A stretch of DNA of 64,000 nucleotides, from positions 41,299 to 105,298 of IMG/VR virus record IMGVR_UViG_3300037258_000375, one strand, 5' to 3'. A program made the translations under genes and the position numbers. A model generated the notes under the pieces. That model did no database searches and was not told where the DNA came from. It was given only the letters and a program-made list of their open reading frames with translations. Of the stretch, positions 42,602 through 48,618 are shown piece by piece. The first letter of the stretch is position 1. Each line of letters opens with the position of its first letter. Source of the DNA: a virus.

Positions 42602-44110
42602 TCACACACCTACCAGTTCCGTATCCTTCAGCACATCGCTGAGCGACTTCAACGGCGTCGCCATGATCTCGTCAACGAGGCTGTACTGGTTCGACCGCAT
42701 CGTCTGCACAAGGTTCGGGATCGCATAATAGTCCGTCTTGCCGTCGCGAAGATCGAACGTCTGCATCTCGATACCCAGTGCATTCATGCGGTAGCTCAAG
42801 TTATCTGTACCGCCAGCGCAGTGGTAGAAGTAGACCGGCACGTCCTTATCCACGAACGTCGCATACTTCTTATACACATCCGGGAAGTGAGGTGCCCTAT
42901 TCTCCTCGCCGTCCGACACGATGGCAATGCCGTCAACCGCGATCTTCTCCGCCAGCATCCGATTCAGACCGCAACCGATGGACGTCGCCGAGCCAGTCTT
43001 GATGTGCTTCGTCGCGGCGATGACCTGATCCAGCGAGCAACCGGTGACATCTACAGTCATCGGAGTTTCGTCGAAGAACACGAGATACACCTTGCCCTTC
43101 ACGAACTGCGCCAGAGACGCCGCCACATGCTTACCGAACTCGATGCTCTTCTCCATGCTCGGGCTGCGATCCACCAGCACAAGCCAATCGCCAGCCGGAC
43201 CGCCAGCCTTCGCGATCTGCTTCGCCTGCAAGCCGCGCAGCTTCTCCTTCAGGCCCTCATCCGTGACGCCCTCGACTGCCTGGGTCGTCTTGAGCGTGTT
43301 CTGCGTAGACGTTGCCGCCTTCTGAAGTGCCTGCTCAAGCGCACCACGCAAAGCTGGGTTGGTCTTGACGCCGAGCTTCTCCAACATCTTCATGCTGGTC
43401 GCTAACTCGGTTGCCGTCATTTGGCCGATGAGGGCCAACACAAGGTCCGGCTCCTTCGCCTTCGCACCAAGAGCACCCGCAGCGATCAAGAACGGCACCT
43501 TGAACCTGATGATTGCGCCCGCCGCCTCAACCGGAGACATGTCCTTGAGGTGTGCCACTGCTTCGAAGACAGAGCCCTTCGGCAAAGCCAGCTTGGTCAC
43601 AACCACGGTACCGTCGATCTTCTCCTTCCACTGGCCGGAGATGACCGCAGCGACGCGGCGGTTACCAGGACCGGTACGTGAGAGCGCGTACAGCGCCTTG
43701 AGCACGCTGCGGTGCTGGATCGCGATGTGATCCCAGTTCCGTGACTCTTCCTTCTGCCGGAGATAGGCGCGAATCACGCGATCCATCTGCGACATCTTGC
43801 CCTTCGGACGAATCTCACGCACGAAATCGAAGGCGCGGCGCAACTCACGCGGGCCGAGCGCAGCCATGTGCGCGACGCTGTTGTCGAGTAATTCGAGATC
43901 ACTCTCGAACGCGAGGCCGAGAACCGGCAACGCGACCTTGCTGTCACGAATCTGACCATGCCGCGCGTTCCAGGCGATCAAATGCTGGAAGAACTCGCCA
44001 TCCTGCGCAATGGCCTGCTTGCCAACCTCGACATACTCGCCGAGCTTGCCGTGAGGAGACTTACTCAACTCGCTAAAAACCTTGGAGCGCGTTAAACCCT
44101 GCTTCTCCAT
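42602..44110 (-). CDS. Ro60/TROVE-vWA RNA-binding protein (divergent)
   Basis: helical N-domain (R..GQIRD) plus vWA with LVDRSPSM, T, IVSDGEEN; adjacent Y-like RNAs. Confidence 0.8.
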   Translation of the reverse strand: MEKQGLTRSKVFSELSKSPHGKLGEYVEVGKQAIAQDGEFFQHLIAWNARHGQIRDSKVALPVLGLAFESDLELLDNSVAHMAALGPRELRRAFDFVREIRPKGKMSQMDRVIRAYLRQKEESRNWDHIAIQHRSVLKALYALSRTGPGNRRVAAVISGQWKEKIDGTVVVTKLALPKGSVFEAVAHLKDMSPVEAAGAIIRFKVPFLIAAGALGAKAKEPDLVLALIGQMTATELATSMKMLEKLGVKTNPALRGALEQALQKAATSTQNTLKTTQAVEGVTDEGLKEKLRGLQAKQIAKAGGPAGDWLVLVDRSPSMEKSIEFGKHVAASLAQFVKGKVYLVFFDETPMTVDVTGCSLDQVIAATKHIKTGSATSIGCGLNRMLAEKIAVDGIAIVSDGEENRAPHFPDVYKKYATFVDKDVPVYFYHCAGGTDNLSYRMNALGIEMQTFDLRDGKTDYYAIPNLVQTMRSNQYSLVDEIMATPLKSLSDVLKDTELVGV

Positions 44111-44139: not shown

Positions 44140-44691
44140 TTATGGGAGTGTACGAGTTCTGAGATATTCGAGAAGGTCGATATAGCTGATCTTCTTCAAC
44201 TGGCACCACGCCACCGCCGACATACCACCTTTGTCTTTGTTGCATTTTCGGCACGCAGACAGGTAGTTACTCGGATCATTCAAGCCGCCCATCTCCAACG
44301 GATTGAAGTGGTCAATGGTCAATTGAACCTTGCCCATCGGCAGACTACAGTACACACATTTACAGCCGTCAGCCATCCATACTTTCTGCTGGACGGCACC
44401 GGAAATGTCGTAGCGTAGCTTCCGATGGAAAATCTTCTCCATCGAGCCTTGGACAAGAATCTCAGGATCGTCCGATCTCTGGAGCCAGTCCGACCATTCT
44501 TCGGTGGTAAGAATTCGAACTGACGCTACAGTAGAAAGACCACGCGCGTTCGGCAATAAGAACACGGCTTGCGCGCCTTCGCCGCCGATCACGACACCTT
44601 CAATTTTGAGGATGGAGCCTACGTCGCCGTGGAGAGCGGGACGATGGCGCAATTCTAGCTGATAAAATCTTGAGTCACTCGCCATCGTCAT
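44140..44691 (-). CDS. HNH nuclease with extra N-terminal domain
   Basis: DG.KCVYC, LTIDHF.P...GG....NY.SAC.KCN..K. Confidence 0.85.
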   Translation of the reverse strand: MTMASDSRFYQLELRHRPALHGDVGSILKIEGVVIGGEGAQAVFLLPNARGLSTVASVRILTTEEWSDWLQRSDDPEILVQGSMEKIFHRKLRYDISGAVQQKVWMADGCKCVYCSLPMGKVQLTIDHFNPLEMGGLNDPSNYLSACRKCNKDKGGMSAVAWCQLKKISYIDLLEYLRTRTLP

Positions 44692-44709: not shown

Positions 44710-44843
44710 CGTGCTGTAGTCGATATGGCTTAGATTTTGCAGAGCCTTTCGGCCCGCGCCCCCCGTATATGAAGCCGGTATGGTGGTGGAAGGGGCCGGG
44801 GTTTCCCCCGGAACAAGATCATGTACCCATGTCAGTCAGCACG
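44710..44843 (-). ncRNA. Y-RNA-like unit 1
   Basis: GUGCU-GACUG-ACAUGGG-UACAUG...CCAUAU-CGACUAC-AGCAC. Confidence 0.8.
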
Positions 44844-45058: not shown

Positions 45059-45172
45059 TGGCTGGGGAACTCGGTTACGAGCCGAGAGCCTTCTTGCGAA
45101 GGCGCAAAGACATGTATCCAAGTCAGTCGGCAGTAACGCCGTAGTCGATCTGGAACTTCTTCAGTTCCCCAG
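45059..45172 (-). ncRNA. Y-RNA-like unit 2 (permuted; acceptor stem, T arm, CCA end)
   Basis: CGACUAC-GGC-loop-GCC-GACUG..UACAUG inside CUGGGGAA/UUCCCCAG-CCA. Confidence 0.8.
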
Positions 45173-45180
45173 TAAAACTT

Positions 45181-45241
45181 GCTGGCGGGAGTTGCCTCGG
45201 CACCTTCCACTCCCGGATCGCCTCGCGGCTGTCGAGCCAGC
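45181..45241 (-). ncRNA. unknown small three-way-junction RNA in Y array
   Basis: GCUGGC/GCCAGC, CGGGAGU/ACUCCCG, GCC-GCGA-GGC. Confidence 0.55.
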
Positions 45242-45249
45242 TAAATTAT

Positions 45250-45368
45250 TGGGGGCGGGTCTTGGATTCGAACCAAGATGCTCAGTTGATGAGACTTCGC
45301 TTTGCCATGTACCCGAATCTGTCAGCGTTTCCGCTGTAGTCGCTCCGGATTGTTTCATAACCCGCCCC
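45250..45368 (-). ncRNA. Y-RNA-like unit 3 (permuted; tRNA with D arm replaced by Y stem)
   Basis: GGCGGGU/ACCCGCC-C-CCA; CUUGG-UUCGAAU-CCAAG; CGACUAC..GACAG..UACAUG. Confidence 0.82.
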
Positions 45369-45375
45369 AACTTAC

Positions 45376-45498
45376 TGACCTGTAGTCGAAGTGCTATTCC
45401 CTTTCGGGAACGGAGTTGGAATTGAACCAACAACCTTCTGCTTAAGAGGCAGATGCTCTACCAAGTGAGCTATCCATGTAAGCACTTCAGTCAGGCCA
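45376..45498 (-). ncRNA. Y-RNA-like unit 4 carrying a tRNA-Lys(CUU) body
   Basis: Y stem enclosing D arm, UCUGC-CUCUUAA-GCAGA, T arm, GAAA hairpin. Confidence 0.85.
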
Positions 45499-45511
45499 TT
45501 CTCAAACTTAC

Positions 45512-45648
45512 TGGGCTGTAGTCGATCTGCTTGTGTTGCTAAGCGCTCTACCACTGAGCTAATCCCGCATAAAATTATGGGGCGGGATGAAGGATTCGAA
45601 CCTCCGACCTCTGCCTTGGAAGGGCATGTAAGCAAATCAGTCAGCCCA
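45512..45648 (-). ncRNA. Y-RNA-like unit 5, YrlA-type (T-acceptor-D order) from tRNA-Gly halves
   Basis: Y stem enclosing CUUCCAA arm, T arm, AUCCCGC-CCCA-spacer-GCGGGAU, D arm. Confidence 0.85.
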
Positions 45649-45655
45649 TACTTAC

Positions 45656-45731
45656 TGGCTTGTAGTCGTTCCGCATTGCCTTTCGGCGTGTTCGTGTTCA
45701 AAGCGATCATGTATGCGAAACAGTCAAGCCA
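45656..45731 (-). ncRNA. Y-RNA-like unit 6 (minimal)
   Basis: UGGCUU-GACUG-UUUCGCA-UACAUG...UGCGGAA-CGACUAC-AAGCCA. Confidence 0.8.
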
Positions 45732-45744
45732 TACTCAAAATTTC

Positions 45745-45861
45745 TCCGCTGTAGTCGTCTGGCAACCCCTTGCGGGGACACGGTCGGATTTGAACCGACT
45801 GCTTTTCATCCAAATTGAAATGTGGGACCAACCCACACATGTAAGCCAAACAGTCAGCGGA
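45745..45861 (-). ncRNA. Y-RNA-like unit 7 with degenerate tRNA body
   Basis: Y stem enclosing D-like arm, AUUUGGA loop arm, GUCGG-UUCAAAU-CCGAC, GCAA hairpin. Confidence 0.82.
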
Positions 45862-47473: not shown

Positions 47474-47689
47474 AAAAATCAGGCAGAACCAGTATATCCC
47501 GAACCTGCACTTGTAATCACAACGGAAGCAATCCGGCCATTCGCATTGAGGGTTACCTCGGTCCCAACCCGGCGAGCCTCCCAGGCACGAGCCGATCTCA
47601 GAAAGATATTCCGGATCAGAGCCGCTTTCCGCCGCCTCTGAATCCGCGCCAAGACCTTCTTGCGCTTGTGCTTCTTTTTGCGATTCTCG

Positions 47690-48050
47690 GGCATAAAAAT
47701 CGAGGCCGGGTATTGCTTTGCATGGAACCCGGCGAACCACGGATAGCTGTTTTTAGGCAGCCATCGGCAACGCATTATCCTCAGCGTTTATTGGTCTGCA
47801 TCCCTTTTGCGGGCGGTAGCAGGGTTCCCGGCACGAAGCTGGAGTTCATTGATCTCGTCGAAACCTTGACGCCCCCACCAAGAAACACTGATTGAGAAAT
47901 GTCTAGCCTGTCCACGAAGCTTTTTGACCAGCTTCGCCCTCGTAGCGCCGGAATCGAACCGACGACGCAATTAGTGCTTCTTGGTGGAGGCGGCGGGAGT
48001 CGAACCCGCGTCCGAAATCAACTTCCTTCAGTGTTGACGTGCGTAACTCA
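47690..48050 (-). ncRNA. ssrA: circularly permuted (two-piece) tmRNA, tag (A)AEDNALPMAA*
   Basis: acceptor piece ending GGUUCGACUCCCGCCGCCUCCACCA (47982) precedes 5' piece GGGGGCG..UUCGAC (47876); G3-U pair; tag at 47785-47753; outer ends approximate. Confidence 0.88.
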
Positions 48051-48075
48051 AATACTGCTCTCCTTTTCTTGAAAA

Positions 48076-48618
48076 TCATTGGACTTGAATATACACCGTC
48101 TTGTCTTCTGACGGGACGATTAAAAAGCTCCGGTCTGGTAAATCCGGAATCCCATGGATCAATCGCTGTCGTAGGGATTCGTGATGTACCCCATAATTCT
48201 TAGCTACCGACCGCATGGACTCACCAGACCTGATCCGCTCTCTCGCGATAGCAAGCTGGTCTTCTGAAAATCTCCTGGTCACCTCGCGTCTTCTGCGCCC
48301 ACGCGCCGGGTCATACGAGGTAATCGCTTTATCTATCTGCGATTGGCGACGAATCGACATCAATGGCCTGAGCAACTGCATCATCTGCAATATCCTCAAG
48401 CCGCCAATGTTGACAACCCAGGAATCTTTCCACTGAGGCTTACGCTTTTTCTTTCGAACTTTGTGATACTTCGCGTTTAACAACCTTGCGATTCGCGCGA
48501 TCACATCTTCATCTGTCATATTGCATGATATGCGTGGGCAATTTGGCTTAGAAGGAGGGCTACATAGAAATGACCCCTCCCCTTCAAGAATGCCAGCAAG
48601 CCAATGAAGATCATGCAT
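48076..48618 (-). CDS. LAGLIDADG-family homing endonuclease
   Basis: WLAGILEGEGSF, MTDEDVI; C-terminal HTH. Confidence 0.85.
   Translation of the reverse strand: MHDLHWLAGILEGEGSFLCSPPSKPNCPRISCNMTDEDVIARIARLLNAKYHKVRKKKRKPQWKDSWVVNIGGLRILQMMQLLRPLMSIRRQSQIDKAITSYDPARGRRRREVTRRFSEDQLAIARERIRSGESMRSVAKNYGVHHESLRQRLIHGIPDLPDRSFLIVPSEDKTVYIQVQ

What the first reader, a model, noticed from the sequence alone, without database searches (positions are those of the whole stretch)
45059..45368. Circularly permuted Y units ending in an acceptor stem and CCA
In units 2 and 3 the motif order is inverted (CGACUAC-hairpin loop-GACWG-UACAUG). The putative Ro stem is capped by a loop and sits where the D arm would be, while the RNA ends form an acceptor stem, T arm and CCA. 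Unit 3 has a perfect UUCGAAU T loop and a weak CUCAUCA anticodon-like loop. Inference: these could be RNase P-processed, possibly aminoacylatable tRNA/Y hybrids, a topology different from YrlA.
Basis: partly seen in the sequence, partly recalled or inferred. Interest (0 to 1): 0.8.

Follow-up and report, generated by a model that had tools for sequence, protein, structure and literature searches.

The report
Inside-out phage Y RNAs with tRNA ends
Two small RNA genes in an uncultured soil phage carry the docking helix for the phage's Ro60-like protein as a loop-capped side arm of a tRNA-shaped frame that ends in CCA, which is the reverse of known bacterial Y RNAs, and the design recurs in at least 16 related phages.

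Summary
On the minus strand, 45368-45250 (unit 3) and 45172-45059 (unit 2) each have a 7-bp acceptor stem, a 5-bp/7-nt T-type arm, N73 and an encoded CCA. These enclose a capped hairpin with the CGACUAC / GACWG..UACAUG motifs that close five neighbouring Y-like units.

This is not chance. The design recurs in at least 16 distinct related phage contigs. On 20 units, 25 of 28 base pairs show compensatory changes, and 0 of 500 shuffles reach the observed score. The phage-specific motif variant changes in step in end-closed and capped units.

The 502-aa protein encoded downstream has a full-length Ro60 fold. The units are circular permutations of the YrlA-type unit in the same array.

- **Topology:** supported.
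- **RNase P/tRNA-style maturation:** plausible but untested.
- **Aminoacylation:** the window's two units show no recognised identity set. However, 6 of 24 units in the family carry G3:U70 with A73.

A strictly covarying -1:N73 pair (20 of 20) leaves the true 5' end open.

I class this as a new variant of a known kind (Y RNA/YrlA). Earlier notes of this scan describe similar tRNA-topology Y RNAs beside Ro60 genes on other DNA; I did not test those.

The parts
45250..45368 (-). Permuted Y-like unit 3. It consists of a terminal helix (G-2, G-1 plus the 7-bp acceptor GGCGGGU/ACCCGCC), a capped Y hairpin, UACAUG, a weak hairpin, the T arm CUUGG-UUCGAAU-CCAAG, C73 and CCA.
   Evidence: Sequence; fold z -3.67; covariance-model hit of 126 bits; orthologues L008:2465-2593 and L007:3132-3262.
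45311..45350 (-). Y (putative Ro60-docking) hairpin of unit 3. S2 is AUCCGGA/UUCGGGU. The internal loop holds GCGACUA opposite ACAGA. S1 is CAGCG/CGCUG, capped by the GAAA tetraloop (45331-45328).
   Evidence: Per-sequence folding gives the same architecture in 18 of 18 permuted units. S1 is 95.5% paired, and all 5 of its pairs show compensatory changes.
45306..45311 (-). UACAUG motif of unit 3. It is invariant in all Y-like units of the array and of close relatives, immediately 3' of the Y helix.
   Evidence: Invariant columns in alignment A3.
45181..45241 (-). X1, a stem-closed element (GCUGGC...GCCAGC followed by A) between the two permuted units. It has no Y motif and no CCA, and it is not part of either unit.
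   Evidence: Fold z only -1.7; no homologue in 62 related loci; not matched by model R1.
45059..45172 (-). Permuted Y-like unit 2. It is a cloverleaf-like RNA made of the acceptor UGGGGAA/UUCCCCA (plus a C-1:G73 pair), stem S3 GAAGA/UCUUU enclosing the capped Y hairpin and UACAUG, a GCAA-capped 6-bp hairpin, the arm CUCGG-CUCGUAA-CCGAG, G73 and CCA.
   Evidence: Sequence; fold z -3.76; constrained fold; found at 51.7 bits (E 2.5e-8) by a model built only from unit-3-type sequences; orthologue L008:2603-2713.
45117..45154 (-). Y hairpin of unit 2. S2 is UCCAG/UUGGA with the mini-helix UCG/UGA. The internal loop is ACUA opposite AC. S1 is CGGCG/UGCCG, capped by UUAC (45136-45133).
   Evidence: Relative to unit 3, S1 shows compensatory change (CAGCG/CGCUG versus CGGCG/UGCCG).
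45376..45861 (-). Four end-closed Y-like units upstream (A 45861-45745, B 45731-45656, C 45648-45512, D 45498-45376). They carry the same GACUG..UACAUG / CGACUAC helix, formed by their own ends. Unit C is the YrlA-type unit of which units 2 and 3 are circular permutations.
   Evidence: Rfam YrlA gives a partial hit of 29 bits on unit C, and tRNA models hit the bodies of units A and D.
44710..44843 (-). The fifth end-closed Y-like unit ('unit 1'), last in the array, just before the HNH gene.
44140..44691 (-). HNH endonuclease gene between the array and the Ro60-like gene.
   Evidence: Pfam HNH_5, E 1.3e-9. A homologue is found in 30 of 63 related loci. No close, array-adjacent copy is found in L014, L018, L025 or L034, which still have permuted units.
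42602..44110 (-). Gene for the Ro60-like protein (502 aa), made of a HEAT-repeat ring and a vWA domain. It is the inferred partner of the Y helix.
   Evidence: The AlphaFold model (pLDDT 78.5) matches Ro60 structures over its full length: 9KOP E 1e-9, 9NEN, and 2NVO with TM 0.59. PHROG 850 'RNA-binding protein'. More than 900 metagenomic homologues.

Best explanation
Units 3 and 2 are genes for single-chain Y-like RNAs of a phage Ro60 system.

The bipartite helix that closes the five neighbouring Y-like units has this layout: stem S1, an asymmetric internal loop with CGACUA opposite AC, stem S2, then UACAUG. In units 3 and 2 that helix is sealed at its S1 end by a tetraloop and built in as a side arm of a tRNA-shaped frame. 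The RNA's own ends form an acceptor stem stacked on a T-type arm and finish in N73-CCA.

The gene order is a circular permutation of the YrlA-type unit C in the same array. It equals that unit's 3' half, then a cap, then its 5' half.

Inferred mechanism:
1. The array is transcribed together with the flanking tRNA genes.
2. The permuted units are cut out like tRNAs, by RNase P at the 5' side and trimming back to CCA at the 3' side. This also frees the ends of their neighbours.
3. The capped hairpin docks the phage Ro60-like ring.
4. The acceptor-T minihelix gives the RNA defined, nuclease-resistant ends and presents a tRNA acceptor-end mimic to host tRNA-binding factors.

Shown here: the anatomy, its conservation and covariation, the Ro60 fold of the neighbouring protein, and the tRNA-like genomic context. 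Inferred: transcription, the processing sites, Ro60 binding, and any effector.
For: Anatomy and chance controls.

Conservation:
- Permuted units occur in the window and in L005, L006, L007, L008, L011, L012, L013, L014, L016, L018, L019, L020, L023, L025 and L034.
- A model built from only three unit-3-type sequences recovers 20 units at E <= 2e-5, including unit 2.

Covariation on those 20 units:
- 90.4% of cells are paired, against 61.8% in shuffles.
- 25 of 28 pairs show double changes.
- The covariation score is 0.717 against 0.198, reached by 0 of 500 shuffles; slid controls stay at or below 0.12.
- A MAFFT-only alignment gives the same result for the acceptor and T stems.

The cap is a designed hairpin:
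- All 18 units fold to the same S2, loop, S1, cap plan.
- 11 of 18 caps are GNRA or UUCG tetraloops.
- There are 16 distinct S1 sequences. S1 is self-complementary in 18 of 18 units, against 14 of 306 cross-unit pairings.

Same partner as the end-closed units:
- The motif variant differs between phages: CGACUAC in the window, L007 and L008; GACAC in L004, L013 and L016; GACUU in L006, L011, L012, L014, L018, L020 and L023; GAUUU in L019; CGAUCC in L034.
- Within each phage the variant is the same in capped and end-closed units.

Partner: the downstream protein has a full-length Ro60 fold. The intervening HNH gene is dispensable.

tRNA-like context:
- 28 of 28 tRNAs in the window, and 168 of 177 in relatives, encode CCA.
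- They share the AGUU-type spacers.

Precedent: M. smegmatis YrlA is cut by RNase P in its acceptor loop, gains CCA and stays bound to Rsr (PMC4201824).
Against: - There are no expression, end-mapping or binding data. The phage is uncultured, and the only match among sequenced phages is an unannotated uncultured megaphage at 28% identity.
- The docking motif is not the published GNCGAAN0-1G motif, and in the end-closed units it lies on the opposite strand. Ro60 binding therefore rests on adjacency and co-variation.
- The closest relative, L004 (72% identity), has no permuted unit, and L007 has only one. The units are therefore dispensable.
- Unit 2's 'T loop' CUCGUAA is not a T-loop, and neither unit has a D loop. 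A tRNA elbow, which helps RNase P recognition, is therefore unlikely.
- The -1:N73 pair (20 of 20) and the frequent G-2:C74 pair are not expected for a 7-bp acceptor cut at +1.
- 5 of the 23 units listed lack an exact CCA; their tails read CCU, UCA (twice), GCC, or are offset by one base.
Confidence: 0.6

Rival explanations
1. Charged Y RNAs. The open acceptor end is a real aminoacylation substrate. The units, or at least their G3:U70 relatives, would be charged like tmRNA. This would protect the 3' end, or link the Ro60-like protein to EF-Tu or the ribosome.
For: - The units have a 7-bp acceptor plus a 5-bp T stem plus NCCA.
- 6 of 24 permuted units in relatives have a G:U pair, always at 3:70 and always with A73. 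It is kept while pairs 6:67 and 7:66 covary.
- Some closed-acceptor units also carry G3:U70 with ACCA.
- From my own knowledge, G3:U70 minihelices are substrates for alanyl-tRNA synthetase.
- Chen et al. raised possible aminoacylation of RNase P-cleaved YrlA (PMC4201824).
- Earlier scan note e1-6026381 reports a Pth2-like hydrolase gene just upstream of the array; I did not test this.
Against: - The window's own units have C3-G70 with C73 and G3-C70 with G73.
- Anticodon-like loops are weak or replaced by GNRA tetraloops, and the D arm is absent.
- N73 is base-paired to -1 in 20 of 20 units, and C74 is often paired too.
- G3:U70 could simply be inherited from a tRNA-Ala ancestor.
Confidence: 0.12
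2. Pure processing punctuation. The tRNA-like frames exist only so that RNase P and 3' trimming chop the polycistronic array and free the neighbouring Y RNAs. The excised units would have no role of their own.
For: - They lie between end-closed units and share tRNA-type spacers.
- Their copy number varies from 0 to 3 between close relatives.
Against: - Punctuation needs no docking hairpin. Yet every unit keeps the full S2, motif, S1, cap and UACAUG, with compensatory changes and the phage-specific motif variant.
- L004 processes (or at least tolerates) its array without any such unit.
Confidence: 0.1
3. The shared helix is recognised by a factor other than the Ro60-like protein, for example the HNH protein, a host protein or a nuclease. 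In that case 'Y RNA' is a misnomer.
For: - The motif differs from the published Ro60-binding motif.
- An HNH gene sits between the array and the Ro60-like gene in the window and in many relatives.
Against: - The HNH gene is not found next to arrays with permuted units in L014, L018, L025 and L034.
- The Ro60-like gene is adjacent in all loci. This holds by construction of the search, so it is weak evidence.
- Unit C matches the YrlA core.
- Y-like RNAs next to phage Ro60 bind it in Thermus phage phiLo (PMC12135203).
Confidence: 0.12
4. Artefact or decay. The 'permuted units' would be junctions of two broken end-closed units, or degenerating tRNA genes with chance insertions.
For: A junction of two ordinary units (B/C, 45625-45668) also matches the loose motif-order pattern.
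Against: - No unmatched partner motifs exist upstream or downstream.
- The two motifs are joined by 4-7-nt caps, mostly stable tetraloops, with unit-specific complementarity.
- The whole design is conserved with covariation down to about 50% protein identity.
Confidence: 0.03

Closest known systems
YrlA (Y RNA-like A; Rfam RF02553; Chen et al. 2014, PMC4201824; Wang et al. 2018, 10.1101/312249)
   Same: Both are encoded beside a Ro60 orthologue. Both have a bipartite docking helix plus a tRNA-derived module with a T arm. Both are related to tRNA by circular permutation.
   Different: - In YrlA the docking helix is formed by the RNA's 5' and 3' ends and the acceptor stem is loop-closed, with no free CCA. 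Here the docking helix is loop-closed and the acceptor is open with an encoded CCA.
- The D arm is missing.
- The motif is CGACUAC / GACWG..UACAUG, not GNCGAAN0-1G.
- There is no Rfam hit.
RNase P-cleaved, CCA-tailed YrlA of Mycobacterium smegmatis (PMC4201824)
   Same: The end state has an open 7-bp acceptor stem with CCA on a Ro60-bound tRNA mimic.
   Different: That RNA becomes two pieces held together by base pairing, and its CCA is completed after transcription. The phage units would reach the same acceptor end as one covalent chain, with CCA in the gene.
Yrl1/Yrl2 of Thermus phage phiLo with phage Ro60 (PMC12135203; PDB 9KOP, 9L5Y)
   Same: These are phage-encoded Ro60 and Y-like RNAs upstream of its gene. 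9KOP is the best structural match of the window's protein.
   Different: The phiLo RNAs are ordinary end-closed stem-bulge-stem Y RNAs with a CGAA motif. No tRNA ends are described.
tRNA-like domain of tmRNA, including two-piece (permuted) tmRNA genes
   Same: Both are acceptor-T minihelices with CCA but no anticodon arm, attached to a non-tRNA body. A permuted tmRNA gene lies 2.3 kb away in the same tRNA island (47662-48093).
   Different: tmRNA has G3:U70, an mRNA-like reading frame and SmpB. The window's units have none of these.
Circularly permuted tRNA genes of red algae and archaea (cited in 10.1101/312249)
   Same: The concept is the same: tRNA-related genes whose parts are in rotated order.
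   Different: Those genes are rotated and are processed back to normal tRNAs. Here the tRNA ends are in native order, and it is the Y RNA that is rotated.

Membership tests
YrlA / bacterial Y RNA (RF02553) | Encoded next to a Ro60/Rsr orthologue | tested here: met
   A 502-aa protein is encoded 0.95-1.25 kb downstream on the same strand. Its model matches Ro60 structures over the full length (E 1e-9 to 1e-6, TM 0.53-0.60). Pfam TROVE and the PDB sequence search were negative.
YrlA / bacterial Y RNA (RF02553) | The Ro60-docking helix is formed by pairing the RNA's own 5' and 3' ends | tested here: not met
   The helix is an internal hairpin capped by GAAA (unit 3) or UUAC (unit 2).
YrlA / bacterial Y RNA (RF02553) | GNCGAAN0-1G motif on the 5' strand of the terminal helix | tested here: not met
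   Only a CGA core is shared (CGACUAC). The model consensus was viewed; the motif is as given in PMC4201824.
YrlA / bacterial Y RNA (RF02553) | tRNA-like module with a T arm, a D arm and a loop-closed acceptor-like stem | tested here: not met
   The acceptor is open with CCA. There is no D arm in either unit. Only unit 3 has a canonical T arm.
YrlA / bacterial Y RNA (RF02553) | Rfam score at or above the gathering threshold (69 bits) | tested here: not met
   There is no YrlA hit on either unit, even at E <= 10. Only unit C scores, at 29 bits.
Y RNA in the functional sense | Binds a Ro60 protein through the conserved helix | not testable with these tools
   There is only indirect support: adjacency, and phage-specific motif variants shared by capped and end-closed units.
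tRNA | 7-bp acceptor stem, 5-bp T stem with a 7-nt loop, N73 and CCA in exact register | tested here: met
   Covariation of both stems is shown.
tRNA | D arm and an anticodon arm with a 7-nt loop; recognised by tRNA models | tested here: not met
   ARAGORN and the Rfam tRNA model do not call either unit. Unit 3 has only a 3-4-bp hairpin, and unit 2 has a GCAA-capped hairpin.
tmRNA-type alanine-accepting tRNA-like domain | G3:U70 wobble pair with A73 | tested here: not met
   Unit 3 has C3-G70 with C73. Unit 2 has G3-C70 with G73. The feature is met in 6 of 24 related units.
Circularly permuted tRNA genes | The 3' half is encoded before the 5' half and is processed to a standard tRNA | tested here: not met
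   The acceptor 5' strand comes first and the T arm and CCA come last, which is the native order.

The most novel reading that the evidence does not exclude
The phage family encodes Ro60-docking RNAs whose free acceptor ends are used in earnest. They would be recognised by an aminoacyl-tRNA synthetase (alanine for the G3:U70/A73 relatives) or by another CCA-end enzyme or toxin. The Ro60-like ring would then be tethered to the translation or tRNA-end machinery, for example to guard tRNA 3' ends or act as a decoy during infection.
Probability: 0.12. Interest if true: 0.85.

Novelty: new variant of a known kind. Interest (0 to 1): 0.6.

Why it matters
Y RNAs are defined by a Ro60-docking helix made from their two ends. 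YrlA is described as a permuted tRNA with a sealed acceptor stem and an unknown effector.

These units show that the docking helix is a portable cassette. It also works, in evolutionary terms, as an internal arm. A large family of uncultured phages (more than 900 homologues of the protein) builds the opposite permutation, a single-chain Ro60 partner with native tRNA ends and an encoded CCA.

This gives three things:
- a simple route of maturation through the tRNA pathway;
- a natural single-chain counterpart of the RNase P-cleaved mycobacterial YrlA;
- concrete substrates for asking what the tRNA-like part of Y RNAs is for, including whether any are charged.

A Ro60-fold protein of a Felix O1-type phage has been reported to counter a bacterial defence system (PMC11482910). 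The RNAs may therefore matter for phage-host conflict.

Tried and rejected
**Searches that found nothing useful**
- Rfam, at gathering thresholds and at E <= 10: no family covers either unit.
- blastn of the array against 50,697 phage records: only short tRNA matches.
- tblastn of the Ro60-like protein against the same records: one uncultured megaphage at 28% identity.
- The Pfam scan and the PDB sequence search did not identify the protein as Ro60. Only the fold search did.
- No phage CCA-adding enzyme or RtcB in the 105-kb record.
- Two reviews (PMC10870794, PMC6047535) are not held, so I could not check them for prior descriptions. Library searches found no paper describing this topology.

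**Methods replaced**
- MAFFT alignments of whole units and of the hairpins were mis-registered in the S1/S2 region. I replaced them with per-sequence folding and a covariance-model alignment.

**Readings rejected**
- The junction-of-two-units reading.
- Coding potential: three overlapping ORFs of 77-90 aa have no Pfam match.
- A D-stem-like S3 for unit 3. Only a UAUG/CAUG pairing without comparative support is possible, and relatives instead keep GUC...GAC without covariation.

**Acceptor-identity look-alikes, recalled from memory and not tests**
- Unit 3's G-1:C73 resembles tRNA-His, but its orthologue L008a has U-1:A73.
- Unit 2's U1:A72, G2:C71, G3:C70 and G73 resemble tRNA-Gln and are shared with L008b. 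However, the unit has no anticodon arm.

**Spacer elements**
- X1, X2 and X3 have no homologues in the related loci.

Full report
**What the window is.** The window is part of a 105-kb uncultured virus record. It holds about 30 tRNA genes and a permuted tmRNA gene, all on the minus strand.

**Layout of the array.** Between 45.86 and 44.71 kb, on the same strand, lies an array of small structured units. It is followed by an HNH gene (44691-44140) and a 502-aa ORF (44110-42602).
- Five units (A, B, C, D and '1') are closed by pairing of their own ends.
- The 5' strand reads S1-GACUG-(S2)-UACAUG. The 3' strand reads (S2)-CGACUAC-S1.
- S1 differs from unit to unit but is always complementary: CCGCUG/CAGCGG, GGCUUG/CAAGCC, GGGCUG/CAGCCC, GGCCUG/CAGGUC and GUGCUG/CAGCAC.
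- Unit C holds a YrlA-type module: an anticodon-like hairpin, a T arm, the acceptor 3' strand with CCA, a loop, the acceptor 5' strand and a D arm. It gives a partial Rfam YrlA hit of 29 bits.
- Units A and D hold tRNA bodies in normal order.

**The observation.** In 45368-45250 (unit 3) and 45172-45059 (unit 2) the two motifs come in the opposite order. They are joined by 4 nt: CGACUAC-AGCG-GAAA-CGCU-GACAG...UACAUG in unit 3, and CGACUAC-GGCG-UUAC-UGCC-GACUG...UACAUG in unit 2.
- The helix is therefore an internal capped hairpin.
- The ends of each unit form a 7-bp acceptor stem that abuts a 5-bp stem with a 7-nt loop, followed by N73 and CCA in exact tRNA register.
- Unit 3 has the T loop UUCGAAU and only a weak hairpin where an anticodon arm would be.
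- Unit 2 has the loop CUCGUAA and a GCAA-capped 6-bp hairpin.
- Folding z-scores are -3.7 and -3.8.
- A strict detector finds nothing comparable on the other strand or on reversed sequence.
- The range also contains X1 (45241-45181). It is a stem-closed element without Y motifs, and I could not explain it.

**Comparative evidence.**
- I fetched 62 loci from IMG/VR using the downstream protein.
- Units of the same design occur in at least 15 further distinct phage contigs, down to about 50% protein identity.
- A covariance model built from three unit-3-type sequences recovers 20 units at E <= 2e-5. These include unit 2 at 51.7 bits.
- On that alignment 90.4% of cells pair, against 61.8% in shuffles. 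25 of 28 pairs show compensatory changes. The covariation score is 0.717 against 0.198, reached by 0 of 500 shuffles. Slid controls stay at or below 0.12.
- Paired cells per helix: terminal helix 96.6%, S1 95.5%, T stem 99%, S2 76%. That alignment is fitted to the model, so I also checked independently.
- A MAFFT-only alignment gives 96.8% paired against 69.7% for the acceptor and T stems.
- Per-sequence minimum-energy folds give the same S2, asymmetric loop, S1, cap plan in 18 of 18 units. There are 16 different S1 sequences. S1 is self-complementary in 18 of 18 units, against 14 of 306 cross-unit pairings. 11 of 18 caps are GNRA or UUCG tetraloops.
- The cap is therefore a selected hairpin, not a processing junction.

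**Same partner as the end-closed units.** The internal-loop motif differs between phage lineages. Within each phage it is the same in end-closed and capped units.

| Motif variant | Loci |
|---|---|
| CGACUAC | window, L007, L008 |
| GACAC | L004, L013, L016 |
| GACUU | L006, L011, L012, L014, L018, L020, L023 |
| GAUUU | L019 |
| CGAUCC | L034 |

- This argues for one phage-encoded reader of the helix.
- The 502-aa protein has no Pfam TROVE hit and no PDB sequence hit.
- Its AlphaFold model (pLDDT 78.5) matches Ro60 structures over the full length. These are Thermus phage phiLo Ro60 (9KOP, E 1e-9), human Ro60 and D. radiodurans Rsr (2NVO, TM 0.59).
- No close, array-adjacent copy of the HNH gene is found in L014, L018, L025 or L034, whose arrays contain permuted units. 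This makes the Ro60-like protein the better candidate.
- Binding itself is inferred. The motif is not the published GNCGAAN0-1G (PMC4201824).

**Topology.**
- Unit C reads: Y5', UACAUG, hairpin, T arm, acceptor 3' strand with CCA, loop, acceptor 5' strand, D arm, Y3'.
- Close the Y ends with a cap and open the acceptor loop, and you get: acceptor 5' strand, (D), Y3', cap, Y5', UACAUG, hairpin, T arm, acceptor 3' strand, CCA. This is exactly the order in units 2 and 3.
- A sister class in relatives keeps a D-like segment (UAGCAAAACGGUAAUGC) before the Y arm.
- In the unit-2 class, a short stem between the 5' linker and the bases right after UACAUG encloses the Y arm. It covaries: GAAGA/UCUUU, AAGA/UCUU, UAAG/CUUA, AAAC/GUUU and GCUU/AAGC.
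- Unit 3 has purine-rich linkers and no supported D stem.

**Processing context.**
- All 28 tRNA genes of the window encode CCA, as do 168 of 177 in relatives. They are separated by the same AGUU/AAGUU-type spacers as the Y units.
- From my own knowledge, acceptor-T minihelices with CCA are model substrates of bacterial RNase P.
- M. smegmatis YrlA is cleaved by RNase P in its acceptor loop, gains CCA and remains bound to Rsr as two pieces (PMC4201824).
- The phage units would reach the same acceptor end as a single chain.
- One feature departs from tRNAs. The base before the acceptor stem pairs with N73 in 20 of 20 aligned units, with five pair types. G-2 pairs with C74 in most units. In the phages' real tRNAs the figures are 66% and 17%.
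- The functional helix may therefore be 8-9 bp. The true 5' end is open.

**Aminoacylation.**
- The window's units have C3-G70 with C73 and G3-C70 with G73. There is no supported anticodon arm and no D arm. I see no identity set that a minihelix could satisfy.
- In relatives, 6 of 24 permuted units have a single wobble pair. It is always G3:U70 and always comes with A73, and it is kept while neighbouring pairs covary. Some closed-acceptor units have the same feature.
- This could reflect alanine charging, or descent from tRNA-Ala. I rate charging of this RNA family at about 12%.

**Variation and limits.**
- L004, at 72% protein identity, has units A, B, C, D and 1 but no permuted unit. L007 has one, L008 has two, and the window has two plus X1-X3. 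The units are gained and lost.
- There are no expression data.
- The searchable library holds no paper describing this topology. Two reviews could not be read.
- Earlier notes of this scan report tRNA-topology Y RNAs beside Ro60 genes on other DNA. I did not test those.
- One note led me to a preprint in which a Ro60-fold protein of phage Bas63 counters the ppl defence system (PMC11482910).

**Verdict.** The topology claim is supported by strong comparative evidence. RNase P-type maturation and Ro60 docking are likely but inferred. Aminoacylation of these two units is unsupported. This is a new variant of the Y RNA/YrlA kind.

Noticed in passing
L006:2860-2976, L012:2943-3060, L014:3016-3136, L020:3188-3301, L023:3134-3252, L034:3480-3576; also closed-acceptor units in L005, L007, L008: In relatives, the only wobble pair in the acceptor stems of permuted units is G3:U70, always with A73. 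It is retained while pairs 6:67 and 7:66 covary. This is the alanine identity set of tRNA-Ala and tmRNA.
   Followed up: partly
window 45367/45253 and 45172/45062; 20 units in alignment A7: The base 5' of the acceptor stem pairs with the discriminator N73 in 20 of 20 units (UA, AU, CG, GC, GU). G-2 often pairs with C74. This is far more regular than in the phages' real tRNAs (66% and 17%). The mature terminal helix may be 8-9 bp.
   Followed up: partly
window 45241-45181 (X1), 45055-44977 (X2), 44967-44850 (X3), minus strand: Three further stem-closed elements lie between the Y units and carry no Y motifs. X2 folds well (z -3.3), with a 10-bp closing helix followed by AUCA. None has a homologue in the 62 related loci, and L008 lacks all three.
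   Followed up: partly
window 47662-48093, minus strand: A two-piece (circularly permuted) tmRNA gene with tag AEDNALPMAA lies in the same tRNA island. The phage therefore carries a second tRNA-related RNA with rotated gene order.
   Followed up: no
window 45648-45512 (unit C) and about 45 similar units in related loci: The closed acceptor loop of the YrlA-type units often begins with NCCA and has a 7-bp stem (15 of 50 hits). It looks like the junction of two tandem tRNA genes, and like the RNase P-cleavable mycobacterial YrlA.
   Followed up: partly
window 45900-45862; L006:2529-2570; L008:1934-1962; L004:2378-2412: Relatives have a sigma-70-like promoter just upstream of the array (TTGACA, 17 nt, TAAGGT in L006). 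In the window the TAAGGT is kept, but the -35-like hexamer lies only 9 nt away. The array may therefore be read through from the upstream tRNA genes.
   Followed up: no
window 44140-44691 and related loci: The HNH endonuclease gene between the array and the Ro60-like gene has a conserved N-terminal domain of about 90 residues and unknown function. A homologue is found in 30 of 63 loci, so it is a frequent but not obligatory companion.
   Followed up: partly
window, spacers after CCA and before the units (for example 45376-45369, 45180-45173, 45058-45055): The same AGUU/AAGUU-type spacer follows tRNA CCA ends and separates the Y units. It may be a shared endonuclease (RNase E-type) site. This is inference only.
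   Followed up: no
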